Source: Gordius albopunctatus
Lineage: Eukaryota
Reading direction: 5' to 3'
DNA: 64,000 nucleotides
Assembly (NCBI GenBank): GCA_964276515.1
Contig: OZ193909.1
Span: 13,144,001 to 13,208,000, forward strand
In this document: positions 1,546-44,705 of the stretch, in pieces
How positions within the stretch are numbered: position 1 is the first letter of the stretch
Layout of the letters: each line of letters opens with the position of its first letter
Notes under the pieces: generated by a model
The model's input: only the letters and a program-made list of their open reading frames with translations
The model's database searches: none
Told to the model about the DNA's origin: nothing
Made by a program: the position numbers and the translations under genes

Positions 1546-2181
1546 CTACATATATATCAAAAGCGTAACCTTAATTACCAAAGGTATACATTTAAATATT
1601 GAGATTTGCTCAAGAAAATTAAAGTAAGCACAGCATCATATCTCACTGATCTCAGCCTGTCTGGAGCTGACATGATACAAACTAGCAAAAATTTAAATAA
1701 AAATATATTTTATTATTAAAAAGCGGAAAAATATGATTAAATTTTATCCATAAATGTGTAACATGATATTTTTATTTAACGTATTGGCTTACATATTACT
1801 GAATAATTCATAAACCAGCTGGAGCCCTACCCGCATCAAACTGACCATTTAAAAAATATGATTTAAAGAAACCTTTTATAAAAAATAGATATTCTCGAAG
1901 GTGTATAATTTAGTTTCCAAGCTCCAGGACCTCGCTCCTGTCTACAATAATATTTTAATCAAAATTGCAATTTCATTAAATATAAAGCCATAGTAGCTAT
2001 TCGAATTCTAAAAATAAAAAAGTAAATTTTTTAAAAAGCTCATTTACATTAAACTGTTAAATAATTTTTTTTACAAAATAGATTAGTGGGTTAATATTAT
2101 TAGTTAATGAAATGTGAATTCTCTGTTTCGAACGCATCCTTGTTTCAAATTACGAATAATCACAATTAAATTTATTTTATA

Positions 2182-9567: not shown

Positions 9568-10880
9568 ATGTGTTTTATTATTTTTTATCACAACCCCTTA
9601 TCAACGAAAAATGAATTCAAATTAATTTTCGCTCATAACAGAGACGAGTATTTTGATAGGCCTTCACAATCTGCATCATTTTTGCAAAATAATTCCGAGA
9701 TAATATGTGGTAATTCTATAATTTATCAAGAATCTTAAAACGGAAAAATTATTATTTAATCCATACTCTAAAAATCAGAAAAAAATGCTATGTAATGATT
9801 CGAATTTTTATGTATTAAGGTAAAAATACATATTTTGTGAGGATTACTAAGATAAATTATTAAGTTTTAGATTAGAATGATTAATAAAGTCATATGGACA
9901 AATGGATTAATTTTTATCAAATATTTAATGTATTTTTTATATAATTTAAATAAAATTTAATTTCTAAAGGAATGGATTTGACCGAAAATGGAACATGGTT
10001 GGGAATTTGTAAAAAGACTGGTTGTTTAGCCACAGTGCTTAATATACCAAACATAAGGGGAGATTGTGATTTGAACTTAGAGAACACTAAGAGTCGGGGT
10101 TCATTATGTCTTGATTTTTTGGAAGATTCTAATTATTCCAATCGCCTATGTGATTTCAAAAATACTGTGAAAAAATATAGAAATTTAAGATTCACCCTAT
10201 TACTCTTCAAAGATATCATTCAATATCCTCATATTTATTATTATAATAACTTACGCCGCGAAGAATTGTATAAACTAAATCCCGGCATATATGCCTTTGG
10301 TAACTCAAAAGTTCCAGAGTCATCATTAAATACAGATACAGATAATATGGTAACAACTGCAAGTTGTGTTGAGCTTCCTCGATTGAAAAAATTGGCAAAG
10401 GGTAAAGAAATATTTGCAAAGATTTTAGATGATTATAAAACTACTAATCTTACAATTGAGCAGTTATCTTCCCGTCTAATAAATGAATTATTACGTGATA
10501 AAACAAAGTAAACTTTTTCTATAATTTTAATAACATAAAATTTATTTAGCAAATATACATCCATGTTTTTTGCAACTCTCAAATTTAGAAATTCACCAGA
10601 CCCTTCATACGAATCAGAATGCATAGATTATGGTTTTGGTAGTGAAGAATTGTACCAAAAATCATCAATATTTGTTGAACCATTCAAACTTTCTTCAAAA
10701 CCCAGGGCCTCACAAAAGAATCGTTGGTATGGGACCCGATGTATGAGTGTTATACTAGTTGATAGCAATAATGAAGTAACATTTACAGAATCATGTTTGG
10801 ATATACCAAAAGACATTAATACCCTTACAGTTGTGCCTGACAAGTGGACAACAACCAAACATTCTTTTAAATTGGGATAA
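9568..10880 (+). CDS. TANGO2: Transport and Golgi organization 2 (NRDE-family) protein; 3 exons: 9568-9709, 9970-10507, 10589-10880; 323 aa
   Basis: N-terminal MC, then HNRDEYFDRP, GTWLGI, SRG and C-terminal YGTR motifs. GT-AG introns join in frame (972 nt). Confidence 0.9.
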
Positions 10881-13800
10881 TTTAATACTTTTAATTTTGT
10901 ATTCTACTAAATCTATATTTTATTTCACTTTTTATAATTCTGAAGCAATAGGTTTATTTATTACAAAATGTCTTCTATTCTGTATGATATAGAATGGACT
11001 ATAGTTTTAAAGGTCAAAATTTAGCCTATTTTGATCCACAATTCAATAATTTCATAAGATATTCTAAGTTTTATAAATATCTTATGGCTGCCAATGTGTC
11101 TACTGCCCAATATATAATTTGTTTTACAATCTATATGATATTTACCTTTAAATATGCACATCATGTTGGTATAACTATATTAGTGGTGATATAAATGACC
11201 GAATGGTTAAAACTAACCCATCCTATTTTGGTAATAAAGTTTTAAAAGTATAAAAAAAGGTGTGAGTGCGCCAGTTATGCCAAATAAGGGGCTTAAAATT
11301 GCCCATGAGTGAGTGACTTAACGTCGATTAACATCATAACAAAATTCGAAATAGGAGGGGGGATGATAACATAGGTTAAGAAGTATGAAGAGGGTCAATT
11401 AATTTGCTATTTAGGCGTTCTCTAAGTTTTCGTTCTTGTTCGGATTGTTGCATCCACAGGCGGTAGTAGTAATTATTTGCGGTCCCCCCAGACCCCAAGA
11501 GAGAGTAATGCGTACCCCGTTCAACTATACCACCCTGACCCATCACTAATATTTGGTCGGCATCCATTACAGTTGTCAACCTATGTGCTATGACGATGGA
11601 AGTCCTATTCATGGTAGCCTTGCTTAAAGAATCCTGTATGTTCTAAGGTTAAATAGATTGCTAATTTTGGTTAAGCCTATAGTAAGTTTGGCATTATATT
11701 ATTGCGTTGCCCGCCATGGAATAAGTTATATATCTTAGCATGTAAAGTAAAGTAGTCTCACTTTTAACTAAAAATAGGCAAATATTTTAGGTGTCAACTT
11801 GCGACGTTAAAATAGACATTATTTATACGACGCCAAGTAGTTTATTAATCTAGTAAGGGAATGTGACATAGCTCAATAACACCTTACCTAAAATTAACTA
11901 TATTACTAAAGTGAACTTTAACATACAATTAAACTATAAAAATTATCGAATCTTAAACATGCATAATGCAATCTATAAAGTGTTTATAACAAAATTGAAA
12001 TGACACTCAAAAAGTATTTACTTCATTTGATGAGTCATCTTTAAACTAAAATTCAATTTGTTAAATTGTCTCAAGCAAATTACTTGGCCTAAATAAAATA
12101 TGGAAAGATAGCACTATAAAAAGATTCTAACCTTTTCGGTTATGGCATCTAATGATGAAGTCGCCTCGTCGAACAAAAAGATGGATGGATTCTTTAAAAT
12201 CACCCTCGCTATGGCTATCCTCTGCTTTTCACCACCTACATATATATCAAAAGCGTAACCTTAATTACCAAAGGTATACATTTAAATATTGAGATTTGCT
12301 CAAGAAAATTAAAGTAAGCACAGCATCATATCTCACTGATCTCAGCCTGTCTGGAGCTGACATGATACAAACTAGCAAAAATTTAAATAAAAATATATTT
12401 TATTATTAAAAAGCGGAAAAATATGATTAAATTTTATCCATAAATGTGTAACATGATATTTTTATTTAACGTATTGGCTTACATATTACTGAATAATTCA
12501 TAAACCAGCTGGAGCCCTACCCGCATCAAACTGACCATTTAAAAAATATGATTTAAAGAAACCTTTTATAAAAAATAGATATTCTCGAAGGTGTATAATT
12601 TAGTTTCCAAGCTCCAGGACCTCGCTCCTGTCTACAATAATATTTTAATCAAAATTGCAATTTCATTAAATATAAAGCCATAGTAGCTATTCGAATTCTA
12701 AAAATAAAAAAGTAAATTTTTTAAAAAGCTCATTTACATTAAACTGTTAAATAATTTTTTTTACAAAATAGATTAGTGGGTTAATATTATTAGTTAATGA
12801 AATGTGAATTCTCTGTTTCGAACGCATCCTTGTTTCAAATTACGAATAATCACAATTAAATTTATTTTATACTAGCTGACCCAGCAAACGTTGTTTTGCT
12901 ATATACATTATTTCTAGAAAATACTATAGGCGATGTGCATGCTCATCCTTATGCCTCGATCATATAATGAGATAATGAGCGATTAAAATATAATTGTCCT
13001 ATGGGAAATAATTTACTAATTTAATGTAGGAAGAATTATTAACACGCTAAATGTAAACACAAAAAGCAAAGTACTTAACATCAAATTTTTTATTGCTTTG
13101 CTTTACACATTTTGCCATATAAATATACTGTCAAATAAATTAATACATGCCTAAAGAATTATTTAATTTGTAAATTGCCACAGGTTTATTTTTTTATTAA
13201 AGGTGTAAAAAACTTTTTTTGCCCCTACCGCAAAATCACGATTCTGGCAAATGGCCGTTTTCGGACTTCAATCAAAACCCCAACACCCCCCCTTGAAAAT
13301 CTGTTTTATTTTTGCGCCTGAACATATTTTAGCGCGTCCAGCTTTTCACTTATTTCGGCAAACTACAATTCAGCTCCCATCTGCTTACAAACTTTAGGTA
13401 TATCATTGGCCGCCAACTGAGCTTTATTGCAATAGAGTCTCATTGTTATCATGTTTAGCTGATATATTGTGTAGTTTAAGCCAACAGGTACCATTATAGA
13501 CGTAGCCCGACCCTCTACCCTCAATTTGCCCTCCGTTAATTTTTACTATTGCTTAAATTGTATAGGAAATCAATGTTCCTATACGAAGAAGAGCCTAATA
13601 AGGCCACACAAAGACAGCAAGTGGATGGGGTTTAAGGGGCAGAGCCCCTTGAGTAAGATTTAGAGGGGCAGCCCCAACCGGGGTACAGGGGTGAAGCCCT
13701 TTGTTTGAATCTTCTTCTTCTTTATCAGTTATTTGGTCCCACGGTCGTGGGGTTTATTTTGATAAGTTTCTTGCATCTTGACCGGGTGAGTGCCATGTCT

Positions 13801-15783
13801 TGACTACTCTTTCGTTTTCATAACTTTATCGCGTTGCCCGTTCCATGTGACACGGGGTCGTCCTCTTACTCTCTTGTCCGGCACCTCTATGTCGAGTACT
13901 TTTCGATTTAGATCATTTGTGTCCCCCTTAGTATATGTTCATACCACTTTAACCGATTTTCGTCAATCATGTCCGCCATAGGTTGAATATTCATTTTTGT
14001 CATGAGAAAGTCATTCGTCATATGGTCAAGCTTAATTTACGCCACCCTTCCCTGGTGTTTATTGCGGATGCTTAATAATCAATTTTTAATTCCTTAAATA
14101 ATTTATTATCATAATGTCAAGTTCGATAAAAAATAAGGTTTTTTTAGTCTCACTTTGTTGTTCACATGTATTCCATCTTTATTTAGTTATTTTAATAACC
14201 CACAGTCCAGGTTTAATATGATCCATAAAATGACCACTGTCTTACGTTAATTTGTATGAGTAGTACGGCCCCAGACGAAAAGCAATTTTTATTTTTGCCC
14301 CGAATCGAGCCCGGAGCAACATCATTAATCTCGCTTATTTCCGAAACATGCGAATATTCGCTAACTTCCTAAGCAAATCCTCCTTTTTGTTTAAAATATT
14401 CCTAGATATACAACATTAAAAACTGAGATATTATGAGGGGTCGTAAAAAATCATTGCCCACAAACCTTACTTTGGTCAATAAGCTATCAGTGTACTCAGA
14501 TAATTCATAAAAACTTAAAGCAACCGGTAGGAGTTAGGGGCGGAGTCCTTCTTAGAGGTCCGAAGAACTGAGATATATCAACATTTATTGGCACTTTGTT
14601 AAAAGTATTTTCATTTTTCTCCTTATTTAACGCGCAAAAATGACAAAATTAGATTTTTTAATTTATTTAGCCACGCAGGAGGGGACACGACCGTCCTATA
14701 ATAATAATTGACGTGAAAAATAAGCAAAAAAATGACTTTGATATTTAATGTTTCAAATCGTAAAAAGTTTCCATTTTCCGCAACACATGCCTACTGCATT
14801 TATCACACTACCTACACCATAGATACGCAGTATATGTCATGAGGTGGCGTTTGAGTGACATTTAAGTAAACGTCAAAACGTCTAAAACTAAATAACATGA
14901 TTGTCTTATGACTTAGAAATTTGGAATATAGTCAAAAACCTAGGCTCAGACCTACCAAGCATTCGCAGAAATTTCCATCTAAATCGGTCCAGCCGTTTCG
15001 GAGGAGTTTAACCACCCACACCGTGACACGTGAATTTTATATATTAGATGATAAAATAATTTTCAAATGTAAAATTTGCCCAAAAAGTTTTTATTTAAGA
15101 AATCGGGCCGAGGCTGGGTTGGGCCAAAATAAAGCATTCGGGCTTGGGCCGAATAAATTCCATTTTCCATGGCTCTAGCCATAATAAATACCTTTTAAAT
15201 ATTATTATTATTTATGGTCAAACTACGGTTTTGTCATAATAAGGCTTATTGCTCCTTTCAATTTAACGTTTCTCGTTTATAGGAATTATTTTAAAATTAC
15301 CGTCTCAAAGCAGTGCATTCCATTTTTAAAAGCTTTAATCGCAATAAATCAAAATTATTCTTATCCCCAACTTTCTTACATACCAAACAATTGCCAATTA
15401 AATTATTTTATACCGTTCAATTTTAAAGCCATCTGTTTACGTTGAGTTTTAACTAATTAATAATCCTATATTCATTACTATATACACCATGATTTTTGTC
15501 AAAAGATGTTTATGGCAATATAAATAAGGTTTTCTTTCAGAGAGATCTATCCCCCGTATAAACATTTGATCGCTGTTTTTAACTTTCGTTAAATGGTTTT
15601 GTTCATAATCCCTTCCCAGAAGATAGCTGAAGTTTACAAAATTGCCAGCTAAAATACTTATAAAATTGAGCGTGGTCTTGAATAATCCAATAAAAAAAAC
15701 AATATAAACCAGGACAACTTCAGTGCTTGAAGGGCCATGATCCCCTGTCAGCGATTACAATTTTATCAAATAATTTGGAAACC
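10691..15783. repeat. Tandem segmental duplication, copy 2
   Basis: Matches 1-5093. Confidence 0.95.
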
Positions 15784-18700: not shown

Positions 18701-21700
18701 AAGGCACCATCAAAGTGAAGAAATTTAAACGAACCAAAATAAAAATCCGTATAAAATGATAACAGCACAAATATCGTCCACGAGGAGCGGTCACGGTGAT
18801 TTAATAGTAAATTTGGCAATTAAGCCAAGTTTTTTGTTTAATAGAAGGTTTGCGAAATAATTTAAGGATTTATCATAAAAAAATAAAATGCACGGAGTGC
18901 GAAAGTTGCTAAGCTTAAAAAAACGTTTGAGACAAAAATGTTGAATGGCACCAAGGCTTCTTTTTGGCTGTCTTGCGGTCCTCTAGGAAGGCGGAATTTA
19001 GTTGGAAGGTCAAAAATGTATACCGAGGTAAAATCGTATGTCAAGATGAGACATCGGGTAGCATTTTTACAATCAAAAAATGGTCAGGTAAATTCTGAAA
19101 TTTGAGAGCCCTTTTTTTGCTATGCCCTATATATTATTTTCTAATGTGTTACACGTTCAGCAGTTTACAGCAATTAAGGCCTGAATCCCCTCAATCCTTG
19201 AGCCGTCAGATCCCTCCCTTGAAGGTAGGATGCGCCCTGACGGCTCTTCTCTAGTCCCCTGGCAAAATGGACTATCCCTCAAATGGGATTTTACTTGTAT
19301 TGACCTTTTTGCACCTTCCCATTTTAATTACAACCCTATTTCTACAGCAGAAGGCCGTAAAACTAGAAAGTATTCTACCCTTTTGGCATCCAATATTTTT
19401 ATCCCTGTCGTTGACACGTGCTCCGGTTCCTTTGGCAAACAGGCAATGGGGTTTTTTAAAGAAATCGGAAAACGCACCCCGAAATCTAAAATTTCTGCGT
19501 CCTTTTTACTCAGGCAACTAGGAATTCTTGACTTTAAATCCTTTGCCGACTCATGGCCCATTTTAGAAGAGAATGATATAGATCATTGTATTTAACCAAT
19601 ATGTCTGTATTTTTGTATTTCGCTTATTTATGTAACTTTGTTTCTTGAAAATAAACTTTTTAACAAAAAAAAAATTTAAAAGGAAATAGGATAAAAAAAT
19701 TTACTCCTCTAATATCAACCCATAGGAAATAAAAAAATGGCAAAGAGGTAAAACTGGTAATGGACATCCCACAGCATTTAAATCCTTTTCCCTCGAGTAT
19801 AGAATATATGGGGTGTTTGGATTGAATATAGCAGATCAGTCACCTAGAGCCAGCACGAATAACTGGCATTTGATCGGTATGTTAAGGATGACATTTAGGC
19901 GATGACCGGTATATGATAAGTCAACGAGTTTAAGGGAGCTGGGCGTCCTAACCGTTGGCTTTGGTAGGCAGTGCAGTTTGGAGGCGATAGGGAGTCTTAA
20001 ATCTGATGTTAAGAGTTTTTGAACAATTACACACTTCCGTATGATATCGGGTCGCAAAATTGCAGTCGGGGGGGGGGGGGGGAAGCAGCTCATTATGGAC
20101 ACGTAAAAGCAATTTTGGGTGGTGTAAAAGGCATGGTGTTTTTGTCTAAGGCATTATGGAGCTCTATTGTAAACTCCCGGGGTAGAAGCTAAAAGGTTTG
20201 AAATTCCTAACTCTATAGCCGTAGAATTTAATCGTGAAAGCTTTCAAAATGTGAACTTAATAGGCATCCCCTGGATTGTTATTATACCAAATTCAAATAT
20301 GGCGGAGCAAAACAAGGCGCTCATTATAGTCCTTTTTTCATTTGATTTTTCATTGCGAGGAGAAATGCCAACATGTGGCCCCTCTCCCATAAATGTTTTA
20401 AACCGTATAAACATTCCGCCTCGAAACCAAAACTAAAGCTAGAGAGTCAAAAACCAAGCCTTCCTTTCATCTAACATTTTTATCCAGGGGGCCTTAGTTT
20501 AGGAACTGTCGAGCCCCGTGTAATTAGTTTTCTTATTTTGCAGGAGCGGTCCATCCTCAAATTCCACAAGCCTAAAATTCTGTAAACTAATTGAGAAGAG
20601 TGGTGTTTGTAGTGTACTTAACGTTTTTTTATTACCCCTTTTATTCCCCCCCATCACGCATACTTGTACGCGTTTCGTTTATGATGATTCATATTTGTAG
20701 TATCGCGATGATAAAAATAGATATTTTAATTACCATGATTTAGTGATTTTGATTACTACACATTTTTTATTATTTTCGCTTGCAGAAAATATATATATTC
20801 TCCGAAAATGTAACCCTTCAGAAAAGAGAACTTAATAAACCTTTTTCGCGGATCCATAAATTTTAAATAAATAAATGTGAAGCTCGAAAATATTCTTCAA
20901 TTTGGACTCTAAATCAATAAAGCCTTTCGTTATCTATTTTTGGAAATATAAACAGAAGTGTGATTTTTATTATCACTCTTCTACAATTGTCAGTTACTTT
21001 GTGGATGACAAATGTATTATTAGGCATGGTAATCTTTAAGTTTTATTTTTATTGGTTTAATAATAAACCGATTGTTTAAGGGCTTGTCTTAATATCGGAT
21101 TTAGCTGCGCAGCAAAAATCGTCGTACGGGTTATAACATAGCTGCCGTGTCTTAACTTCGAATTCACACCAGATTTGCATATTAGGTGCTTAACATAACA
21201 GCGATTTTGTAAGATGCAAATTTTTTCCTAAGCTTAAATGTTGTATGTTGTTAAATTTATAGGCATCGACAAAGTTTAGATTTAATATCTAGAGTTAAAA
21301 TAAACAAGGAACGTTTTTAACTATCAAAAAACAAAATATTATTAATTACAACCGAGTTTGACTCATGAAATTGAATCATGGGATATTTAGACAAAGATAA
21401 ATTCGCGCGATTTGAATCTGAATCCGATATTAAGACAAGCCCTAAGGGCCATCTATAATTTGACTATAAGAAAGCGATGGTTAGCACCGACGCAGCTTAA
21501 AATAACATACCTCGTCATGGGCGTAGCCAGAGGGTGGCAAGGAGGGGGGCGGCTGCCCCTCTAAATCCAAAATTTTGTCAAAATCTAATATATAATTATC
21601 ACTAAAATTACTAAAAATCTTCATTTTGCCCCCGATTCAATCCTGGCTATGCCCATGCACCTCGTCTTCCAAATAAGTGTAGAAATGATATAATATTAGA

Positions 21701-24700
21701 TTTAAAAAAAATGATAAAAATTTTAAGGTTGTTTAAGGCTTAGTAATAAAATATAAATTAAACGAGAGCGTACCCGCATCCGCTACCTCCCACTATAGCC
21801 ACCTTTTTGCCGGCAGGGACGTGAAAGGATAAATCTTTAACGATATCCCTATCATCTGTATACCCGAATGTTACGTCTTTGAACGTTACTTCCGCACTAT
21901 CTCTACCATTCCCAGACGGAAACAGGGGAGGCAAGTTGGGGACATCCTTAAAGAACAAATATAATTAAAATAACATTTTAAATTTTTTAAATAAGCGGTA
22001 AACATTTATTTAGGAAACATACCAATTCCTTTAAATAAAAAATAAAGAGGGCTAAAAGGTATGAAATTAAGGGCAAAGTTTATCCTTTATTAAATCAGTC
22101 TTTTAATTAAACTTATTGATGCTCAAGGAGCTCAACAAATTAAAAACGTCCATTGATATAATATAAATTTTAAAAAAAAATCAGAAGCATATTTAGAAGG
22201 TGGGAGCCTCATAATAACATATTAATAAGGGAAGGTCAAAGTGGTTTAAACAAATTAAGTGTAACTTTGACCATTTACACTGTAATTTATTGGTTTTTTT
22301 GAGAGCGCACACCCAAAGTCTAGACTTGGGTCAAGGGGCGTAGCCAAGAAGGAGAGGCAATCTTCACCCACAAATTATATTAAAAGTTATTTAATTATAT
22401 TAAAAGTAATTTAATTATATTAAATTTAATTATGAATCATCTCGCTATATAACCAATTCTTACCCCATTCTCCTTAATTCCTGTATAAGCCGACGTTCAC
22501 TTGCATATACCCTGCACGGGCCGAGCCCCCCAAAAATTAAATAAATAAATGGGACTAACTTAGTCCTAATAAATTATTTAATTTCTAATGCTGTCCGGGG
22601 ACGACAGGAAGCAAAGCGGGTAGAAGCCCCTCCCCGTCTACCCCTGGCTACACCCGTGCTATTTGATTAAGACGGTAGCAATAAAATGAAATAGCCAGAG
22701 TTTGTTGTTGTATTACGTGAATCACGGGTTTGAGTTTAATGAGCGAAAACATGGCTTGCATATCTATTTGTTGCTGCTTTAGTCCTCGTAAGGTAGTCCC
22801 ATATACTAGTTCAGCACTAGAACAGGCTAGATCTTCTTTGATTGTCGTTCTAATGCCTAGTAATATCAACGGAAGTGATTCGGACCACTTGTTAGTGTTG
22901 TTTTTTGTCATGATCGAACTCTTTAATTGACGATGGAAACGTTCGACCAGCCCATTGGCTTGTGGGTGATAGGCAGTTGTAGTTATGTGATGATAACCAA
23001 GAAGTTGGGAAAATTGTCGGAATAGCGTTGAACGAAACTGCGATCCTCTGTCGGAAGTTATCGTGCTTGGGACGCCGAAGTTTGCTATCCAATGTGTTAA
23101 AAATGTACTACTTACAGTTTCGGCAGAGGTATCTTTTATAGGTATTGCTATTGGCCACCGGGTGTATCTATCTATGGCTGTAAAAATGTAGTTGTAACCA
23201 TTGGATGGTGGTAAGGGGCCAACGATGTCTAGGTGGACATGGCTGAATCGAGCATCTGGTTGGTTAAATGTACCTGGCGTAGAAATAACATGTTTATGTA
23301 TTTTGCTGACCTGGCAATTATGACATTGCTGAGCCCATCTTCGTACATCATGATTCATTTTAGGCCAGACAAAACGTTTTAAAATAAGTTTTAAGGTTGA
23401 ATTGATACCCGGATGTGATAATCCGTGATATTGATTAAAAACTGTTTGTAGCAAGGTAGCAGGTACCAGGGGTCGAGGCGTTGCTTGAGAAACATCACAA
23501 ATGATATTTTGTTTGGAATCTGGTATAGGGAATTGTTCCAATATTAAGGATTTCATTTCATCATTTGTGTAATTTTCAAGTTTTTGTCTCGTAGCTATTA
23601 GTTCCAGCAATGACTGTGATGCTAGGAGTTGGATTGTATCAATGTCTGTACGTGACAAAGTATCGGCCACAATGTTTGTGTTACCTCGGATATATTGGAT
23701 GTCCGATGTGAATTGAGATATGTAGTCCAGTTGACGAATTTCACGAGGAGAGTATTTGCCTGACTTTGCCTTAAGTGCATAAGTTAAGGGTTTGTGGTCA
23801 GTATATACTGTGAAATGTCGTCCTTCGAGAACATGGTTGTAATATTTTATCGTAACACCCACTCCTGTATCATAGTCAAGGCACATGACTTGACATTCTT
23901 ACTAATCCTGTTGATAATCCTATTTCTTGAAGTTGTCTGATTGTTCTTTTGTGTTATTATGGCGCGCGTCTTTGAGACTCCAACATACACCCTACAAACT
24001 GCTCATGCCATTTTGAACATGATGAGCGTAGCCAATGAAATTCTAAAGGAAAACATCCCCGACCTCTCAAAAAGAATATTTGCATGTGAGAACATAGGAT
24101 CGGAATCTAACGCATTCTTGTATGGATATAGCAATATCCACCTCCCCGAGTTCGATGACCAATTGGCTGGGGTGGATTATGAAGACATTGATGCCCACAT
24201 GAGGTACTGTTACGCCGAAGGTTTAAAAATAAAAAATACAGATAAGTTACTAAGGATTGCCTCGTACGGTGTACTCTTTGATTTAGAGTATATACTACCT
24301 TCGACATTGACATGGTCTCCAGAGTACACTGCCATAGGATTTGCTATGACACCCATGGCCGTAGGTGGTTTTAGACTCTTGTTGATGAATGCCATGGCAT
24401 ACTTGTTTAGTTTTCTCCTCATATTCATGTCGCTCATTTTCTCTTTTAGCTTACATGCCCCAAGCCTCTTGGGGCATGGAAGGCAACCACTTGCTGGAAT
24501 CTGTCCAACCGCTCTATCACGTTGTTAGATTGAAGTGTGAGGTCAATTGCGCGCCTGATTGCGTAATAATAGCACAACATGGGGTCGGATCCGCGAGCAG
24601 AGGATGCTCTGGCTGAGCCTAGAACTGTATCTACTTGTACTATCGAGGATGAGAGCCTTCTGGTGTAATCACGGTCTATTTTGGCAAAAGTCTCCATATC

Positions 24701-27700
24701 AACGAAGACCTCTGATCCTTGGCAGTACATCCTGTTAAGATAGATGAACTTTATTGTTGAATATATGGTCTTGGACAGGTTCAATTCAGCACCCATATCT
24801 CTCCACACGGACACTGTTGTATCGAAGTGCATAGATGCAGCCCTCTGGCATTCTTCCTTGGTCATTGAGCTTGGGAATTGGACCCCCTGTACGGCATCAT
24901 CAATCAACCCGGCTGTATCAGCTCTAGTTTCATCAGGCAAATATCCTGCCTCTTTGCCCTTCCTAACACAATATGTACTTATGTGGACATTGAAAATTGA
25001 GTCTGCGGTGCCAGTCCAGCCTTGGAATAAGCCACCATCTGCTGGGTTGTGCTGGAGTATTCCTCTCTTGGATATCGCTATCTAGATGCCACTGAGAATC
25101 TTCTCCAACTTTAGCCATGTGCCATTGCTCGTAAGACCAACGCTATAATCGTGGTGCTTCGACCATAGATGCCTGGGTGCGCTTGGGCTCCAGCCGCTAG
25201 CATCGTTGGATATGATGACACCCATTCTTCTATCGATTGCGTATGAGTTTATTCTGTCAAATATATTTTAAACTGCGCAGTCGTCTTTCCTTGAGGTCAC
25301 ACCACTGTACAAATAAGCGAGCTGAATCAAGCTTTGATCATACTCTGACATTAATTCCCTCGTTATGGCATCAGCCGAGAGTGTCTCTCTCATTTTGTCC
25401 CCACTCTTTGTGTTCTCAGCTTTGAAGGCAACATCTGCGAGTTTGTCCCAAGGCATTGTGCCTGCTTTACACATGTCGTAGATTTTCTTCGGTGGATAGC
25501 CTGGCTCAATCTCAGGTGCGTTGTTAAGCATGTAGAGCAATTCGTTTCCCTCAAATGGTTTGACCTGTAGTCTGGCTGTTACAGTTTTGTAATTACTCAA
25601 TAATGGTGGGATCCTCGTTACGTCGCCAACTGTTAGGTACCATGTGTGCAGCCTGATGGGAACCTTGAAATAGTTCACAACATATGCCTTACCCCATTCA
25701 TTTTTGGGTGGCAGACAAAGATCCCCTTTCTTGCACCTATCTGCCCATTTCTTTCCTTCGATGGAGTAATCCCCTTCTGTTTCCAATTTTACACTACCCT
25801 TGGATTTAGCCAACAATTTTGCTAAGTCAGATGCTTTCACGTAATTTAAGAATGTCTCAAACTCCCTTGGATTGCCCTTGTTGGTCTCTCTCAACTGTTT
25901 CTCAAAGCGTCTGTAGGCAGACAGGGGGGGGCATCGGGACAAGGCAGCAAGTGGTACATGTATGCTAGGTTAAGTGCTTCTCTACAGTTGGCCCCAGACT
26001 CTATTAGAGCATCAAACCAAGTTGGGCTATATATCGCTATATCTTTTAAATCCTTCATCAATGTTTGCAGCCTCTTCGATGCACCGAGCTCTAGCTTCTC
26101 TGCATGGTTGTGTAGGTTGTTTTGCAAGATAGACATGCATTGTTTCATCCATTTGCCAAGAACCTCAGGGTTCCTGAACTGCATCATGGTTTAACAGAGC
26201 CATTTAAACAAGTACCTATAAGATTGCAGAAAAGAAGTGACGCGCTTTGCTTGGCCAATCCTGTAGAAATGGGCATAGAACTCCATGCCATACCATGTCT
26301 TCATGAGAGCCCTGATCTGGTCGAGGTGGGCATGATCAAGGATGAATATTACATCGTTAGTGATTAACACTGTCATGGCAGAGATCCTGTAGATGGCTCT
26401 AACGCCAAGATTTCTTCCTGGGTAGTTTCCCTTTATCCTAAAGCATTCCAAGTATGTTCGTGTAGACATGATGTCACTGTGTGCCTGGGCCATTTCCTTA
26501 GTTGAGCCAGCCAATCTCATCTTTTCCCAGACCTCACATACATGTAACGCCCCGATTAATTCTTTGGTGTACCCACTATAGGAGGGTATACGTGTAGACA
26601 TGTTATCAATTACTTCTTTACCCAAGTTGCAGGATATGAGCCCAGATGCTGCTACATTCATGGCTATTGAATGTGAATCGTTCAATCTGCAATGCATCAG
26701 AGAAGGCCATGAGCAGATGGAACCATTCACATTCTTATAGGTACTTGTTTAAATGNNNNNNNNNNNNNNNNNNNNNNNNNNNNNNNNNNNNNNNNNNNNN
26801 NNNNNNNNNNNNNNNNNNNNNNNNNNNNNNNNNNNNNNNNNNNNNNNNNNNNNNNNNNNNNNNNNNNNNNNNNNNNNNNNNNNNNNNNNNNNNNNNNNNN
26901 NNNNNNNNNNNNNNNNNNNNNNNNNNNNNNNNNNNNNNNNNNNNNNNNNNNNNNNAGGCAACATCTGCGAGTTTGTCCCAAGGCATTGTGCCTGCTTTAC
27001 ACATGTCGTAGATTTTCTTCGGTGGATAGCCTGGCTCAATCTCAGGTGCGTTGTTAAGCATGTAGAGCAATTCGTTTCCCTCAAATGGTTTGACCTGTAG
27101 TCTGGCTGTTACAGTTTTGTAATTACTCAATAATGGTGGGATCCTCGTTACGTCGCCAACTGTTAGGTACCATGTGTGCAGCCTGATGGGAACCTTGAAA
27201 TAGTTCACAACATATGCCTTACCCCATTCATTTTTGGGTGGCAGACAAAGATCCCCTTTCTTGCACCTATCTGCCCATTTCTTTCCTTCGATGGAGTAAT
27301 CCCCTTCTGTTTCCAATTTTACACTACCCTTGGATTTAGCCAACAATTTTGCTAAGTCAGATGCTTTCACGTAATTTAAGAATGTCTCAAACTCCCTTGG
27401 ATTGCCCTTGTTGGTCTCTCTCAACTGTTTCTCAAAGCGTCTGTAGGCAGACAGGGGGGGGCATCGGGACAAGGCAGCAAGTGGTACATGTATGCTAGGT
27501 TAAGTGCTTCTCTACAGTTGGCCCCAGACTCTATTAGAGCATCAAACCAAGTTGGGCTATATATCGCTATATCTTTTAAATCCTTCATCAATGTTTGCAG
27601 CCTCTTCGATGCACCGAGCTCTAGCTTCTCTGCATGGTTGTGTAGGTTGTTTTGCAAGATAGACATGCATTGTTTCATCCATTTGCCAAGAACCTCAGGG

Positions 27701-30700
27701 TTCCTGAACTGCATCATGGTTTAACAGAGCCATTTAAACAAGTACCTATAAGATTGCAGAAAAGAAGTGACGCGCTTTGCTTGGCCAATCCTGTAGAAAT
27801 GGGCATAGAACTCCATGCCATACCATGTCTTCATGAGAGCCCTGATCTGGTCGAGGTGGGCATGATCAAGGATGAATATTACATCGTTAGTGATTAACAC
27901 TGTCATGGCAGAGATCCTGTAGATGGCTCTAACGCCAAGATTTCTTCCTGGGTAGTTTCCCTTTATCCTAAAGCATTCCAAGTATGTTCGTGTAGACATG
28001 ATGTCACTGTGTGCCTGGGCCATTTCCTTAGTTGAGCCAGCCAATCTCATCTTTTCCCAGACCTCACATGCATGTAACGCCCCGATTAATTCTTTGGTGT
28101 ACCCACTATAGGAGGGTATACGTGTAGACATGTTATCAATTACTTCTTTACCCAAGTTGCAGGATATGAGCCCAGATGCTGCTACATTCATGGCTATTGA
28201 ATGTGAATCGTTCAATCTGCAATGCATCAGAGAAGGCCATGAGCAGATGGAACCATTCACATTCTTATAGGTACTTGTTTAAATGGCTCTGCCAAACCAT
28301 GATGCAGTTCAGGAACCCTGAGGTTCTTGGCAAATGGATGAAACAATGCATGTCTATCTTGCAAAACAACCTACACAACCATGCAGAGAAGCTAGAGCTC
28401 GGTGCATCGAAGAGGCTGCAAACATTGATGAAGGATTTAAAAGATATAGCGATATATAGCCCAACTTGGTTTGATGCTCTAATAGAGTCTGGGGCCAACT
28501 GTAGAGAAGCACTCAACCTAGCATACATGTACCACTTGCTGCCTTGTCCCGATGCCCCCCCCTGTCTGCCTACAGACGCTTTGAGAAACAGTCGAGAGAG
28601 ACCAACAAGGGCAATCCAAGGGAGTTTGAGACATTCTTAAATTACGTGAAAGCATCTGACTTAGCAAAATTGTTGGCTAAATCCAAGGGTAGTGTAAAAT
28701 TGGAAACAGAAGGGGATTACTCCATCGAAGGAAAGAAATGGGCAGATAGGTGCAAGAAAGGGGATCTTTGTCTGCCACCCAAAAATGAATGGGGTAAGGC
28801 ATATGTTGTGAACTATTTCAAGGTTCCCATCAGGCTGCACACATGGTACCTAACAGTTGGCGACGTAACGAGGATCCCACCATTATTGAGTAATTACAAA
28901 ACTGTAACAGCCAGACTACAGGTCAAACCATTTGAGGGAAACGAATTGCTCTACATGCTTAACAACGCACCTGAGATCGAGCCAGGCTATCCACCGAAGA
29001 AAATCTACGACATGTGTAAAGCAGGCATAATGCCTTGGGACAAACTCGCAGATGTTGCCTTCAAAGCTGAGAACACAAAGAGTGGGGACAAAATGAGAGA
29101 GACACTCTCGGCTGATGCCATAACGAGGGAATTAATGTCAGAGTATGATCAAAGCTTGATTCAGCTCGCTTATTTGTACAGTGGTGTGACCTCAAGGAAA
29201 GACGACTGCGCAGTTTAAAATATATTTGACAGAATAAACTCATACACAATCGATAGAAGAATGGGTGTCATCATATCCAACGATGCTAGCGGCTGGAGCC
29301 CAAGCGCACCCAGGCATCTATGGTCGAAGCACCACGATTATAGCGTTGGTCTTACGAGCAATGGCACATGGCTAAAGTTGGAGAAGATTCTCAGTGGCAT
29401 CTAGATAGCGATATCCAAGAGAGGAATACTCCAGCACAACCCAGCAGATGGTGGCTTATTCCAAGGCTGGACTGGCACCGCAGACTCAATTTTCAATGTC
29501 CACATAAGTACATATTGTGTTAGGAAGGGCAAAGAGGCAGGATATTTGCCTGATGAAACTAGAGCTGATACAGCCGGGTTGATTGATGATGCCGTACAGG
29601 GGGTCCAATTCCCAAGCTCAATGACCAAGGAAGAATGCCAGAGGGCTGCATCTATGCACTTCGATACAACAGTGTCCGTGTGGAGAGATATGGGTGCTGA
29701 ATTGAACCTGTCCAAGACCATATATTCAACAATAAAGTTCATCTATCTTAACAGGATGTACTGCCAAGGATCAGAGGTCTTAGTTGATATGAAGACTTTT
29801 GCCAAAATAGACCGTGATTACACCAGAAGGCTCTCATCCTTGATAGTACAAGTAGATACAGTTCTAGGCTCAGCCAGAGCATCCTCTGCTCGCGGATCCG
29901 ACCCCATGTTGTGCTATTATTACGCAATCAGGCGCGCAATTGACCTCACACTTCCATCTAACAACGTGATAGACGGTTGGACAGATTCCAGCAAGTGGTT
30001 GCCTTCCATGCCCCAAGAGGCTTGGGGGGAATGGGGATACCACATATCATTGGCTTCCTTAGCAAAGAGCGCCTAGACCCATACACAATGTTCACTGCAA
30101 TTGTGTGTAAGCTAAAAGAGAAAATGAGCGACATGAATATGAGGAGAAAACTAAACAAGTATGCCATGGCATTCATCAACAAGAGTCTAAAACCACCTAC
30201 GGCCATGGGTGTCATAGCAAATCCTATGGCAGTGTACTCTGGAGACCATGTCAATGTCGAAGGTCGTATATACTCTAAATCAAAGAGTACACCGTACGAG
30301 GCAATCCTTAGTAACTTATCTGTATTTTTTATTTTTTAACCTTCGGCGTAACAGTACCTCATGTGGGCATCAATGTCTTCATAATCCACCCCAGCCAATT
30401 GGTCATCGAACTCGGGGAGGTGGATATTGCTATATCCATACAAGAATGCGTTAGATTCCGATCCTATGTTCTCACATGCAAATATTCTTTTTGAGTGGTC
30501 GGGGATGTTTTCCTTTAGAATTTCATTGGCTACGCTCATCATGTTCAAAATGGCATGAGCAGTTTGTAGGGTGTATGTTGGAGTCTCAAAGACGCGCGCC
30601 ATAATAACACAAAAGAACAATCAGACAACTTCAAGAAATAGGATTATCAACAGGATTAGTAAGAATGTCAAGTCATGTGCCTTGACTATGATACAGGAGT

Positions 30701-33700
30701 GGGTGTTACGATAAAATATTACAACCATGTTCTCGAAGGACGACATTTCACAGTATATACTGACCACAAACCCTTAACTTATGCACTTAAGGCAAAGTCA
30801 GACAAATACTCTCCTCGTGAAATTCGTCAACAGGACTACCTTACGTCTTCCGGGCGACTTCATACAACATTCGTCACTCGACAGCAATGCTAGGGAGTTT
30901 ATACAACGCCTTAGACAACATTTCGACAACGTACGTTTTTCACCACCACGTCAGCCTAACACTAAACAACAAATCCCTACCGATTTGTTTTCTACACCTT
31001 ACATTTTTATCCGAACTGATAAAGTTCGAAAAAGCTTATCCCCACCATATGAAGGCCCTTTCAAAGTTATTGATAGACAAACTAAATACTTTGTAGTAGA
31101 CAGAAACGGGAAACATGATAACATTTCTATCGATCGGTTAAAACCAGCTTATACTGAATCAGTCAACCATACTGAACCACTCTTAAAAGGCCCGCTTATT
31201 CAAACCAAACCTTCCACCTCTACGTCCACAACAACCTCAACTAACACTACAACAAATCATACAACAACAAAATCAGGACGAAAAGTGCATTGGCCAGTTA
31301 AATTAGCTGAATACATATATTTTTAGCACTCCTTGCAAACTGGAGGGGGAATTATATGGTTACCTAGGCAATTTGAATAAAGCAACTCACATCGGTTACC
31401 TAGGAAAAAAACTTAACCTTTATTATTCAAGTATTCATACGTCTTAATCATAAAAATGAATAAATTCAAGTATTTGAATGTCTGACATTTCAACGTTATT
31501 ATTCACACAAATAACCTCGCCAGATGTGTATATAAACGCGATTTTTGAAAAGTATTTATTCATTTGTTTTTCTTTCTATTATTTGGAAATAAAATAGTTG
31601 TTTGTTCTCCTACATTTCTTTGTTTAATAAATACTATATTTATTTTACTATATAGGACTAAAGCAGCAACAAATATTGACCTTTTTGCCCCTTCCCATTT
31701 TAATTACGACCCTATCGCTACAGAAGAAGGGCGTAAAACTACAAAGTATTCTGCCCTTTTGGCATCCAATATTTTTATCCCTGTCGTTGCCACGTGCTCC
31801 GGTTCCTTTGGCAAACAGGCAATGGGGTTTTTTAAGGAAATCGGAAAACGCACGCCGAAATCTAAAATTTCTGCGTCCTTTTTACTCAGGCAACAACTAG
31901 GGATTCTTGTTGCACGATACAACTTTAAATCCTTTGCCGACTCATGGCCTATTTTAGAAGAGAATGATATAAATCTTTGTATTTAACCAATATGTCTTTA
32001 TTTTTGTATTTCGCTTATGAATGTAACTTTGTTTCTTGAAAATAAACTTTTTAACAAAAAAAAAAAAATTAAGTGTAACTTTGACCATTTACACTGTAAT
32101 TTATTGGTTTTTTGAGAGCGCACACCCAAAGTGTAGACTTGGGTCAAGGGGCGTAGCCAAGAAGGAGAGGCAATCTTCACCCACAAATTATATTAAAGGT
32201 AATTTAATTATATTAAATTTAATTATGAAAAAATCTCAGAAAATAATGACTTCCTCTCGCTATATAACCAATTCTTACCCCACTCTCCTTAATTCCTGTA
32301 TAAGCCGACGTTCACTTGCATATACCCTGCACGGGCCGAGCCCCCCAAAAATTAAATAAATAAATGGGACTAACTTAGTCCTAATAAATTATTTAATTTC
32401 TAATGCTGTCCGGGGACGACAGGAAGCAAAGCGGGTAGAAGCCCCCCCCCCGTCTACCCCTGGCTACACCCGTGCTATTTGATTGAGACGGTAGCAATAA
32501 AATGAAATAGCCAGAGTTTGTTGTTGTATTACGTGAATCACGGGTTTGAGTTTCATGAGCGAAAACATGGCTTGCATATCTATGACGGATTGTCTAACCT
32601 CTCGATAAACGGTGCCCAAAAAGTTGAGAGGCAAGGAAAGTTGGAAAATTAATCCATTGACTAAAACCAAATCGCCAACCGTCATTGCACCTAGTATGAA
32701 CGAAAGAGAATAATATTTTAGTGGGGAAAAAGAGTCGATTCAAAACTATACCATATTGTAATATTACATTGGCCGAAAAACCGAAAAGTAAATTATAATT
32801 TTACCGGTTAATATTTCTTGGCCCGCCATGACCATAGTGAGAGACAGGGCTCCACTAAAAATGAAATTTTGGCCGAAATTGAGGACAGATAGACTGGTAG
32901 CAGTTTTTATGGAAGCGCGTTCGTAATTGGCTTGCAGCTTATCGTATTTATCAGCTTCGTAAGATTCGTTGTTGAAATACTGGATAAAAGTTTTTTAAAA
33001 ATAGAGTATATAATTTGAAAAATTTGGATTAACTACGTAAAAAATTCTTTGAATTTTAATATAAATATGGCTAAAATTTGAAAAAATTATCGTTTTGCCC
33101 CTCCCTAAATCATTATTGCCCCCCCCCTCTGATTCAAACCCTGGCTACGCCCATGCGTAATTATAAGGCGTTAAGACTCAAAAAAATAATGAAGCAAGTG
33201 GAAAAATGTAGCATTTCTATAAATAATTCATTAGATGAGTGTTTAAGCTTATTATTATCCAATCCAAGCTCTACTATCCCCCACAGCGTTTATTGATTTT
33301 GTTTATAAAAAGATATGTAAGAAGTGTATTTTCATGTGATGTAAGACGCGTAGCGTAATGTGTAATGTATGACGTCGTAAGGTGTGAATAAGCGGTTACG
33401 CGGTAAGCATGGAATATATATTAAAAGTGCGGTGGCGAAATTTTAGGATAATAAGATATGATTGATAAAATGGAGGTGCGTGAAAGCGCGAAATGCCAAA
33501 GAGCGATTCAAAAACCAACGGTTTTCCTTTTATATGCGCTCAGAGTGTGCGCGGATAAACATGCGCTTTTTATATAGATATAAATTAAGGAAAAAACATT
33601 TGTTTTTCAAAAAAATAAAAGTCCCCTTACGAAAGTATATCTTGCTGAGTTTGTCAAATCTCCCCGCCTCAAAACATATATAAATGTTTTTGGCCATAAG

Positions 33701-41924: not shown

Positions 41925-43100
41925 CTAGATGAACCCGGCAAACGTTGTTTTGCCATTTACCCGGGTGTATTAAATTATGTTGGAATTTTAGGGCATACAT
42001 GATGATAAAGCGGTTATTGAAGTAAAAATAAAGTTTGATAATTTTTAAACAAATAGTTAAAGAGGGTCCAAGGCCCAGGCCCATCCAAGAGATAAAACCT
42101 GGCCCCATGCCCCCCCAAGGGAAAAATCTTTGGCCCCCTGGCCCTTCAAGCAATTTTTTATATTTTTTTGTAATTAACAAACAATATCATAATTATTTGT
42201 TTCTGAATAAAACTTTTAATTCTGAACTTAATAATGTCCGAAGAACTGAGATATATCAACATTTATTAGCACTTTGTTAATTGTATTTTCATTTTTCTCC
42301 TTATTTAACGCGCAAAAAATGACAAAATTAGATTTTTAAATTTATTTAGCCACGCAGGAGGGGATACGACCGTCCTATAATAATAAAAATAAATGACGTG
42401 GAAAATAAGCAAAAAAATGACTTTGATTCATGGGCGTACCCCCCCCCCCTAATTAGCCAGGGAAGGGCAAAAAGGGTGGCTACCCCCTGCGGGTCTCAGG
42501 AAAATTTTAGGAATTTAGTAGTCGAAGACCTTTTTTTGCTCTCATGAAAATTTTTGGATAGTCGAAAAAAAAATTTTTTTAAATCTGCCCCCCCCCAATT
42601 CAAAACCTGCTTATTATACAATAATACCATTATTTTATTTTTATAGTTAGCTGATTTATTTGAAATACAATTTTCTTTAATATAATAAAAAAATTAATTG
42701 AAGGATGGATAATTATTAAAAATATGCTTCCATGATCGACCACGTGATAATAATTTAAATATTATTTATTTAATTTAAATAGTTTGTTAAACCCCAATAA
42801 TTTTGACCGTATACTGTAACATTTTTATTATACTTTTAAATATCTAATGCGAGAAAACTTCAGCCTTGTATGTATGGCGTCATTATTGTATATGCTGCTA
42901 TAAATTAAACCTGCCGGGAAATGTGCGATATTTTTAAAACGAAAAGGTATTTTAGGAATCTGAAAAAGCTATTTTACCCCTGGCCCCCCTGGGCATCTAT
43001 GGTTAAATTTTAGCGCAAATCGGGCCGGTAGTTTCAGAGATTAGCCCTTACATACATACATATATATATATATACATAGACTTTATTTTATATATATAGA
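41925..43100 (-). mobile_element. Composite non-autonomous Helitron-like element
   Basis: Minus-strand 5' end TCTATATATATAAAATAAAG with a (TATG)n tract; 3' hairpin plus CTAG|T. 42608-43100 is an inverted homolog of 51396-52230. Confidence 0.6.
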
Positions 43101-43699
43101 TAGTCATCTATAAGAGCCAGGAAAAAATATATATGGTATAATTATTTTTAGAAGTCGAGACGAGACGAGAATTCTCGCCGAGACGAGATTTTTCTAGGCC
43201 AAAACGAGATCGAGATTTTAACAATCGCACCCGAGACGAGACGAGAATTTGCTTTCGAGACCGATACGAGATCGAAACACTAAATATCTCTATTAGAGAC
43301 TTTTACCTTGAACGATAGTACGTTTTCAGTTTTTTTCCTAGTCGTCTAGATTTTGTGATAATAAGGTTAAAGATGCAAAAAATGTCCTTCTTAACGTTTT
43401 TTAGGCTATATTCCCGCGCCATTTCAAATTTATTTTTAATAATATTTTTATAATCATATGTCGTATTATCTTTCCCACTACTTTTATTAATCCATCTTTA
43501 CCACTTGTTAAATATCCATAGGAAAAGGGCTTGGGGGATTATAGTCAATTATCATGCCAAATTCTTTTACCTAATACTTCTTTTTGTCCTAAAATAACAA
43601 AAATATTCAGTTACAGCGTTTTTCTAAACTTTTGCACTTCTTATTCCTCTCCTGCACACTAGTAGGAGAGAAAAGGGGTAATCCATCATAGCGTTTAAC

Positions 43700-44705
43700 A
43701 TGAAATGTGCCGGGACATCTCCTTGACCAATGGACGGAGGTGGGACTGGATAGCGACAGCCCACCTATCATTAGCGAAGCGTCCAATATCCCCTCATTCC
43801 CCTCCCACCCCTTATCCTCATTCTCTCATTTCACCCTTCCATTATCCATACGCACTTCCATTCTCAAGCCCCATCATTTGCAGTCGCGGTTCACCCACAA
43901 CAAATCATGCTGGACTTGTGTAAAAAATCGATCACGAAAAGTAAATACAATGTGTATTTGGATGATATACTCATCTATAGGCGCTCAAAAACCTTGGTAA
44001 AAGCGGCTGGTAAAATGCTGGAACTTGACCATAAACCACAACAAGTCCTCCCTCGAGCCACGGACGGTGTTGGACTATCTCGGTATCAATGTGAACCTGG
44101 AAAACCATACACTCAAGGTAAACAAGAATTTTATTACGAAGATAGACGCCGCCATCCAGATCATTAACCATTTCATCACCACCAACAAACGACCGCACCC
44201 TTTGGTTACCCAGACCTGTCTGGGAATCCTCACACATTACGTCTACATGTTTACCGGGTGGTCGAAGTTTCTCTCTCCCGCCTACAACATTTTCTTCTCA
44301 GGAGATCCGATTCCGTTCCATTCAGATTGGCTCATCAAGAAAATCCTCATGGTCCAGAATCACTTTTCCACACCCTTCCGCAGAAGACATGAGCCCAACG
44401 GGTTCACAGCCGGAGACGCTTCTCCATTATAGACACACCCAACATCACGCCGAGAGTCATCACAGATTCAAAGACGGCGTTTTACATTTTTAAAAAAGGT
44501 GCTGCACATGCACCCCACTTAGATTAGAGCTAGGATTCACCAAGATCTGTCACACAATGGGCCTGGACCACATGCTCCGGATTAAGCAAAATATTCGAAT
44601 CCAGCAGATGTTCCATCCCGGGAAAGTTTTTTCGACGACAACCAGCTATGTCGAATTGTGTATTGGGCGCGCTCGAATATTTCACATCGCCAGAACAGCA
44701 CCTAG
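43700..44705 (+). mobile_element. Degenerate RT-RNase H retroelement relic (DIRS/Ngaro-like or hepadnavirus-related)
   Basis: VYLDDILI; INHNKSSLEPRTVLDYLG; RNase H motifs GDASP, ITDSKTA and NPADVPSR. Frameshifted. Confidence 0.7.

What the first reader, a model, noticed from the sequence alone, without database searches (positions are those of the whole stretch)
23722..30839. Virus-derived ~2.5-kb inverted repeat inside an intron of ABCB7: candidate natural antiviral hairpin-RNA locus
Seen: 23722-26223 is the near-perfect reverse complement of 28263-30839 (arms of 2502 and 2577 nt). Once the gap-side duplicate is collapsed, a ~510-nt loop separates them. The arms are almost entirely viral and cover RdRp motifs A-E. 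The structure lies in intron 9 of an intact ABCB7 gene. Established: ABCB7/Atm1 is a broadly expressed housekeeping gene, long fold-back RNAs are Dicer substrates, and non-retroviral EVEs yield small RNAs in arthropods, mostly single-stranded piRNAs. Inference: each ABCB7 pre-mRNA would contain kilobase-scale viral dsRNA without needing its own promoter. That would be a heritable siRNA source against the cognate virus, resembling an engineered hairpin-RNAi cassette. Coding lesions would not affect this role.
Basis: partly seen in the sequence, partly recalled or inferred. Interest (0 to 1): 0.92.

Follow-up and report, generated by a model that had tools for sequence, protein, structure and literature searches.

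The report
Viral hairpin inside a hairworm intron
A worm that is most likely a hairworm carries 2.4 kb of an RNA-virus polymerase gene as a head-to-head repeat inside an intron of a housekeeping gene, so each transcript would fold into long viral double-stranded RNA that could be cut into antiviral small RNAs, a role that is untested.

Summary
The inverted repeat is real. The arms (23722-26226 and 28260-30839) differ by 17 substitutions, a 76-nt deletion and a 1-nt indel. They enclose a loop of about 505 nt once an assembly overlap is collapsed. Contigs of two public runs bridge the loop, with arm-specific letters on both sides.

The arms are 95% qinvirus L gene (motifs A-E) and 5% Gypsy RNase H. 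They lie in an intron of an intact ABCB7 whose best match is a hairworm (Gordionus). That points to a young reverse-transcription accident.

Read-through dsRNA is a sound inference. Dicing, protection and selection are untested, and no cognate virus is known (best relative 67% protein identity). The design is known in plants (soybean CMV repeat, tomato intronic repeats); my ten paper searches showed no animal case. Published surveys find freshwater hairworms largely lack PIWI and RdRP, so a hairpin could be their only route to inherited small-RNA immunity.

The parts
32533..32690 (-). ABCB7 exon upstream of the host intron (8th mapped exon)
21947..32532 (-). ABCB7 intron holding the element; 10,586 nt as assembled, 9,056 nt after collapsing gap and overlap; GT-AG
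21774..21946 (-). ABCB7 exon downstream of the host intron, single copy
22248..22767 (.). Left copy of a 520-bp direct repeat (exon tail, duplicate splice donor, intron start); likely target-site duplication
22768..22786 (-). Last 19 nt of the Gypsy LTR end, inverted, at the left junction
   Evidence: junction supported in X2 by depth arithmetic
22787..23721 (-). Gypsy integrase zinc finger and core, present on the left side only
   Evidence: Pfam PF17921, PF00665; native family continues at 22787
23722..26226 (.). Left arm: Gypsy RNase H 23722-23855 (-), presumed viral leader 23856-23958 and L residues 1-112 at 23959-24270 (+), L residues 991 to 314 at 24273-26226 (-)
   Evidence: residue numbers of P0001
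26756..26955 (.). 200-N assembly gap
26956..28285 (.). Redundant copy of 25426-26755 (contig overlap, assembly artefact)
27757..28259 (-). Loop, about 503 nt, qinvirus L from about residue 150 to 313
   Evidence: bridged by X1 and X2 contigs
28260..30839 (.). Right arm: L residues 314-991 at 28263-30288 (+) with motifs A-E, L residues 112 to 1 at 30291-30602 (-), presumed leader to 30705, Gypsy RNase H 30706-30839 (+)
30833..31326 (+). Gypsy integrase C-terminal part, present on the right side only, joined to RNase H by an internal deletion
31342..31673 (+). Polypurine tract (31342-31351) and LTR of about 315 nt ending at 31671-31673
   Evidence: sequence; high-copy depth and an X3 contig ending at 31672; LTR limits inferred
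31674..32068 (+). 3' fragment with poly(A) of a very high-copy repeat, likely a LINE
   Evidence: LINE label recalled from motif, no Pfam or Atlas name
32062..32583 (.). Right copy of the 520-bp direct repeat, continuous with the functional exon

Best explanation
A fold-back insertion of qinvirus polymerase sequence joined to Gypsy retrotransposon pieces sits in an intron of an intact ABCB7 gene of a likely hairworm, and each ABCB7 transcript would fold into about 2.5 kb of mostly viral double-stranded RNA that is likely cut by Dicer into small RNAs. Origin (inferred): Gypsy reverse transcriptase switched onto a rearranged, already partly broken viral L template at its start; the cDNA folded back and copied itself; the product was joined into a LINE-type break with a 520-bp duplication. 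Action (inferred): ABCB7 transcription supplies the promoter, splicing removes the intron so the host protein is unharmed, and the released duplex yields small RNAs from the arms but not the loop. Shown: structure, junction support, intact host gene, viral identity. Not shown: RNA, dsRNA, small RNAs, protection, selection.
For: Loop bridged by contigs of X1 (631 nt) and X2 (629 nt) whose ends fall 30 nt past arm-specific letters on both sides. In X2, contig depth is 585 on the loop, 580 on the left-arm deletion joint, 595 and 590 on the two alleles at 24224, 1161 on an arm contig, against 296-644 (median 506) on 7 flank contigs. I read this as full dose, although the tool warns that depth is no copy number. 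ABCB7 is intact across the element. 2149 of 2560 21-mers of the right arm pair perfectly with the left arm; longest perfect run 535 bp. The Gypsy-virus junction is the same in both arms (23855/30706) and both outer ends carry the same LTR end. Analogues give arm-derived siRNA: soybean CMV repeat (PMC6256188, passages) and tomato intronic repeats (PMC9868043, abstract and section 7). Hairworm miRNAs imply a Dicer (PMC4323106, passages).
Against: No RNA evidence was obtained. A Dicer and Argonaute able to use long dsRNA are not shown for hairworms, and I could not test it; hairworms are reported to lack RdRP amplification (PMC13650160, PMC4323106). An intronic nuclear duplex may be edited or degraded instead (general knowledge). 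Three AATAAA hexamers lie in the arms on the transcribed strand, 11 in the intron, and could end transcripts early. The element looks young: arms 0.7% apart, Gypsy part 1 of 377 and 6 of 477 letters from the family's majority contigs. The G-U bias among arm transitions (8 of 10) is not significant (one-sided p=0.055). X1 and X2 belong to one study and either may be the source of the assembly. The left junction is not covered by an X1 contig, and the junctions at 30839, 31673 and 32062 were not seen bridged in the listed contigs.
Confidence: 0.45

Rival explanations
1. The structure is real but silent: a young, tolerated accident whose intronic duplex is spliced out and edited or degraded in the nucleus, reaching full dose by drift.
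For: Young age. Origin is fully explained by retroelement activity. No significant sign of selection on pairing. No target virus found. A related qinvirus-like protein is annotated on a 54.6-Mb Gordionus contig (P0003), so such insertions recur in hairworms.
Against: A second haplotype appears to share both arms and the loop, so the palindrome has persisted. Large deletions removed almost all Gypsy pairing while the viral arms stayed. Plant analogues of the same design are diced.
Confidence: 0.42
2. The main effect is on the host locus or on the Gypsy family: the duplex slows splicing or draws silencing onto ABCB7, or small RNAs from the 134-bp Gypsy stem restrain a young retrotransposon family.
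For: 134 bp of each arm are Gypsy RNase H. The family is high-copy with near-identical members. The transcript carries Gypsy sequence in both orientations.
Against: 95% of the duplex is viral. Full dose in X2 suggests ABCB7 function is tolerated.
Confidence: 0.08
3. The palindrome is an assembly or library artefact (fold-back chimeric reads or joined haplotypes).
For: An assembly gap with a 1330-nt overlap sits inside it. X1 depth falls towards the centre: 110, 57, 12. Both supporting runs are of one study. Three outer junctions were not seen bridged.
Against: A chimeric read would give identical arms, yet the arms differ at 19 places. One contig side alone holds 801-nt arms with 7 differences. 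Two runs bridge the loop, and X2 differs from the assembly at several arm sites. The next ABCB7 exon lies only beyond the left flank, so the gene needs both sides. The X1 gradient fits loss of snap-back molecules in library making (inference).
Confidence: 0.05

Closest known systems
Soybean CMV RNA1 inverted-repeat EVE (Da Fonseca et al. 2016; seen only as described in passages of review PMC6256188)
   Same: Non-retroviral RNA-virus sequence as an inverted repeat of kilobase arms with a 0.5-kb loop, next to an LTR retrotransposon; proposed hairpin siRNA source.
   Different: Plant; positive-strand virus; loop of plant origin; promoter from a Copia LTR; siRNAs measured. Here: animal, negative-strand qinvirus, viral loop, intronic in a housekeeping gene, no RNA data.
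Tomato intronic pararetroviral inverted repeats, TSAs (PMC9868043; abstract and section 7 read)
   Same: Viral inverted repeats inside introns, transcribed from host gene promoters, host gene still spliced; proposed heritable RNA immunity.
   Different: DNA pararetrovirus with its own reverse transcriptase; 22-nt siRNA and reporter silencing shown; many loci. Here one locus from an RNA virus captured by Gypsy.
Viral DNA-retrotransposon chimeras from defective genomes in insects (PMC5857290; passages)
   Same: Discontinuous viral pieces joined to LTR-retrotransposon sequence, with viral sequence opposite to the retrotransposon next to the junction.
   Different: Those are somatic, unintegrated, from positive-strand viruses. 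This one is chromosomal, inherited and palindromic.
Arthropod non-retroviral EVEs that yield piRNAs (PMC8048955; passages and search listing)
   Same: RNA-virus fragments inserted in an animal genome; association with LTR elements is recalled.
   Different: They act through single-stranded piRNA; PIWI was not found in freshwater hairworms (PMC4323106, PMC13650160). This one is double-stranded by structure.
Qinviridae L protein (Collembolan qin-related virus OKIAV112, P0001; Gordionus P0003)
   Same: 54% and 61% identity over the core; IDD motif C; same clade 100/100.
   Different: Broken, rearranged, about half of L only; no second segment seen.

Membership tests
Qinvirus-derived endogenous element | L-protein homology with best hits among qinviruses | tested here: met
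   best hits P0001 (63%), P0002, P0003, Wuhan insect virus 15
Qinvirus-derived endogenous element | IDD motif C (recalled as typical of the family) | tested here: met
   IDD at 29582; LIDDA in 15 of 17 homologs, LMDDA in 1, none found in 1
Qinvirus-derived endogenous element | Present as host DNA with host flanks and coding lesions | tested here: met
Hairpin-siRNA locus from a viral inverted repeat | Long near-perfect inverted repeat of viral sequence in the genome | tested here: met
Hairpin-siRNA locus from a viral inverted repeat | Both arms within one transcription unit | tested here: inconclusive
   gene model puts both arms in one intron; no RNA seen
Hairpin-siRNA locus from a viral inverted repeat | Dicer-type small RNAs from arms, not loop | not testable with these tools
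   no small-RNA data available
Hairpin-siRNA locus from a viral inverted repeat | Silencing of a cognate virus or reporter in trans | not testable with these tools
   closest known relative 67% protein identity
Gypsy-virus chimeric cDNA insertion | Direct junction of viral sequence to Gypsy pol (RNase H then integrase) with PPT and LTR | tested here: met
Canonical integrase-made LTR insertion | Two direct LTRs and a 4-6-bp target-site duplication | tested here: not met
   LTR ends are inverted; the flanking duplication is 520 bp
piRNA-cluster EVE | Host has PIWI and the locus yields 25-32-nt 1U RNAs | not testable with these tools
   literature reports no PIWI in the freshwater hairworms examined; this species not examined

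The most novel reading that the evidence does not exclude
In an animal lineage that has lost both piRNAs and RdRP, a Gypsy-made fold-back copy of a virus gene, parked in the intron of a housekeeping gene, acts as a selected, inherited antiviral hairpin-RNAi cassette against a hairworm qinvirus: a natural animal version of an engineered hairpin transgene and a piRNA-free form of genomic immune memory.
Probability: 0.12. Interest if true: 0.88.

Novelty: new variant of a known kind. Interest (0 to 1): 0.62.

Why it matters
Inherited antiviral memory from RNA-virus insertions in animals is known mainly through piRNAs. Freshwater hairworms are reported to lack PIWI and RdRP (PMC4323106, PMC13650160), so only a self-pairing transcript could turn an insertion into small RNAs. 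This locus gives a clean test with a built-in control (arms against loop) of whether these worms have a long-dsRNA siRNA pathway. It also preserves, in a chromosome, the kind of virus-retrotransposon chimera so far described as transient DNA in infected insects, and it is indirect evidence for a qinvirus lineage of hairworms.

Tried and rejected
Expression: no RNA holder listed among 7 runs; this is no evidence either way.

Related species: 3 of the 4 listed runs of organism B were laid (X4; X5, X7). They cover Gypsy and, in X4, ABCB7 exons (14 other letters in 183), but essentially none of the viral part. A part without cover proves nothing, so lineage-specificity is not claimed.

Other read data: X2 has little or no cover at 23904-24103 and one contig there starts with 22 unlaid letters; unexplained. 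X3 has one short piece at 29212, not followed.

Cognate virus: none in viral contigs (0 of 3 candidate stretches); 1 weak locus of 80 stretches in metagenomes (36% over 50 residues, treated as chance); 0 of 84 similar-length candidates; best 63-67% among 167 hits.

ADAR signature in the arm differences: 8 of 10 transitions give G-U on the transcribed strand (p=0.055). Of the 4 that could be polarised, 3 fit A-to-G and 1 weakly does not; not accepted.

A 3.5-kb duplication with later loss of the duplicated exon was my first reading of the flanks. It is less favoured because the two LINE-like copies differ by 18 of 382 against 6 of 447 for the 520-bp repeat outside its AT-rich tract (p=0.006), but it is not excluded.

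No whole genome is held, so other copies, Dicer and Argonaute could not be searched. Earlier-findings look-ups were empty. Ten paper searches showed no animal hairpin EVE and no hairworm siRNA study; the library lacks most subscription papers, and supplements of most papers were not read.
Full report
1. Observation. The repeat is at the stated place. Arms 23722-26226 and 28260-30839 align at E=0. They differ by 17 substitutions in about 2503 aligned positions, a net 76-nt deletion in the left arm and a 1-nt indel. A 200-N gap at 26756-26955 is flanked by a 1330-nt overlap with 1 difference, so 26956-28285 is redundant. Both contigs pass through the same fold-back junction near 28260. The collapsed loop is 503-509 nt.

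2. Host. An exon query hit ABCB7 of Gordionus (Nematomorpha) first, at 89%; the other 119 listed hits of 880 reach at most 82%. I take the host to be a hairworm (inference). Thirteen exons give an open 633-residue frame, 455 of 613 residues identical to P0018, with 12 of 12 introns GT-AG. The element lies in intron 32532-21947. The N-terminal exon was not found, so the number 9 is plausible but not shown.

3. Virus. The best named hits are qinviruses. Against P0001, each arm holds L residues 314-991 in one direction and residues 1-112 plus about 100 nt of presumed leader in the other; the loop holds roughly residues 150-313. Motifs A-E, with IDD at 29582, are inside the arms (labels recalled). 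A tree of 18 rows puts the element with the Gordionus protein P0003 (89/82, weak) in a 100/100 clade with P0001 and P0002. Both arms share two stops (P0001 residues 632, 694) and a frameshift near 412. The left arm alone has a stop at 324 and the deletion; the right arm alone has a stop at 97 and a frameshift near 885. So the template was already partly broken before the arms separated, or the arms were later homogenised.

4. Flanks. Each arm ends in 134 nt of Gypsy RNase H, with the same virus junction on both sides; family contigs run on at 23855 and 30706. The left side continues into the integrase core (Pfam). The right side continues into the integrase C-terminus, a polypurine tract and an LTR. 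Family contigs show these two integrase pieces are contiguous in native copies. Both outer ends finish in the same 19-nt LTR end. On the right follows a poly(A)-tailed high-copy fragment, likely a LINE 3' end (label recalled). The whole insert sits between 520-bp direct repeats that include an exon tail and splice donor.

5. Is it real? Seven runs hold part of the stretch; two (X1, X2, one study) hold 0.90 and 0.84 of its words. Either may be the source of the assembly. In each, one contig spans the loop and ends 30 nt beyond arm-specific letters on both sides. The left-arm deletion is seen as a joint in both. In X2 the depths are 585 (loop), 580 (deletion joint), 595 and 590 (two alleles at 24224) and 1161 (arm contig), against a median of 506 (range 296-644) on 7 flank contigs. 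I read this as full dose; the tool warns that depth is no copy number, and 3 of 16 tested X2 contig ends fall on restriction sites (background 0.018 per position), so X2 may be a proximity-ligation library with uneven depth. The left junction is supported in X2 only, by depth arithmetic that matches a contig of depth 714 crossing 22767 by at least 14 nt. X2 lacks the arm difference at 27723/28293. At 7 of 7 arm differences where both its state and a direction were visible, X2 has the state of the arm that better matches homologs or keeps the frame, which suggests a second haplotype. Against: X1 depth falls from 110 to 57 to 12 towards the centre and is 48 on the left flank; X2 has a hole at 23904-24103; junctions 30839, 31673 and 32062 were not seen bridged in the cut tables. 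I put the artefact reading at 5%.

6. Origin (inferred). The junctions fit a template switch by Gypsy reverse transcriptase onto a rearranged viral L template at its start, as described for virus-retrotransposon chimeras in insects (PMC5857290, passages). Model A, about 50%: the cDNA folded back and copied itself, giving two identical LTR ends, and was captured at a LINE-made break; this explains both ends stopping at the LTR end. Model B, about 35%: a read-through RNA of an older copy was retroposed by LINE machinery with twin priming; this explains the poly(A), the duplication, the shared lesions and the complementary Gypsy deletions. The remainder covers a larger duplication with later deletion. 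The element is young: arms 0.7% apart, Gypsy part within about 1% of family contigs.

7. Action (inferred). ABCB7 is transcribed from the minus strand through both arms; the LTR points away from the arms. 2149 of 2560 21-mers pair perfectly and the longest perfect run is 535 bp. Splicing would leave the protein intact. Whether the duplex is diced or edited and degraded is open. A hairworm study found miRNAs but no piRNAs, PIWI or RdRP (PMC4323106, passages and supplement 13). A survey of four nematomorph genomes found them largely without PIWI, GTSF-1 and RdRP, except PIWI and GTSF-1 in Nectonema (PMC13650160, passages). This makes a self-pairing transcript the only obvious route from an insertion to small RNAs, but it also removes amplification, and a long-dsRNA Dicer is not shown. 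I give dicing 0.45, silence 0.42, host-locus or Gypsy effects 0.08, artefact 0.05. A selected antiviral role is a subset of the first, 0.12. No virus close enough to be a target was found.

8. Comparison. It works like the soybean CMV RNA1 inverted repeat (3.4-kb arms, 0.5-kb loop, siRNA from arms only; seen through review PMC6256188, original not read) and the tomato intronic pararetroviral repeats (PMC9868043, abstract and section 7). Membership of that class is met for structure and untested for small RNAs and silencing. It is a qinvirus-derived element and a Gypsy-virus chimera by the tests listed. It is not a canonical LTR insertion. Papers seen only as passages: PMC6955108 (qinvirus host range), PMC6649704 (palindromes in hairworm mitochondria, no evident link), PMC11642819 and PMC8048955 (no animal hairpin EVE in the passages shown). 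Ten searches listed no animal example; the library is incomplete.

9. Verdict. Observation confirmed, interpretation partly supported. New variant of a known kind: a verified, probably full-dose viral hairpin in an animal intron, in a lineage where it would matter, with function untested. Interest 0.62; most novel reading 0.12 likely and worth 0.88 if true.

Noticed in passing
window 1-5093 and 10691-15783: Tandem duplicate (2 differences in 5093) of the last two ABCB7 exons and the end of a TANGO2 gene. One boundary falls at an ABCB7 splice donor (15783), with a MULE transposase fragment at 5084-5464. Recent duplication or assembly redundancy.
   Followed up: partly
window 9954-10880 (+): TANGO2 family gene pieces (PF05742), tail to tail with ABCB7.
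   Followed up: partly
window 42610-43102 and 51394-52230: Second long inverted repeat (about 93% identical, 360-440-nt blocks) about 8 kb apart, with a reverse-transcriptase-like reading frame at 43775-44432 between (no Pfam hit).
   Followed up: no
window 22785, 22799, 23728, 30833, 31655: The two deletions in the Gypsy parts are complementary and both break at or beside copies of the hexamer GGACTA; together they remove nearly all Gypsy-Gypsy pairing. Unexplained.
   Followed up: partly
arms, run X2 against the assembly: X2 contigs differ from the assembled arms at several sites and carry one letter (24547/29939) seen in neither arm, but show 0 other letters in about 4.5 kb of listed flank contigs. 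Either the arms mutate faster, or X2 holds a second haplotype or another copy.
   Followed up: partly
protein P0003: Qinvirus-like protein annotated on a 54.6-Mb Gordionus contig, sister to this element in the tree (89/82, not starred). Its surroundings should be checked for a similar inverted layout.
   Followed up: no
window 19185-19674 (+): Longer copy of the same poly(A)-tailed high-copy repeat in the next intron; unnamed eukaryotic Atlas clusters at 0.96.
   Followed up: partly
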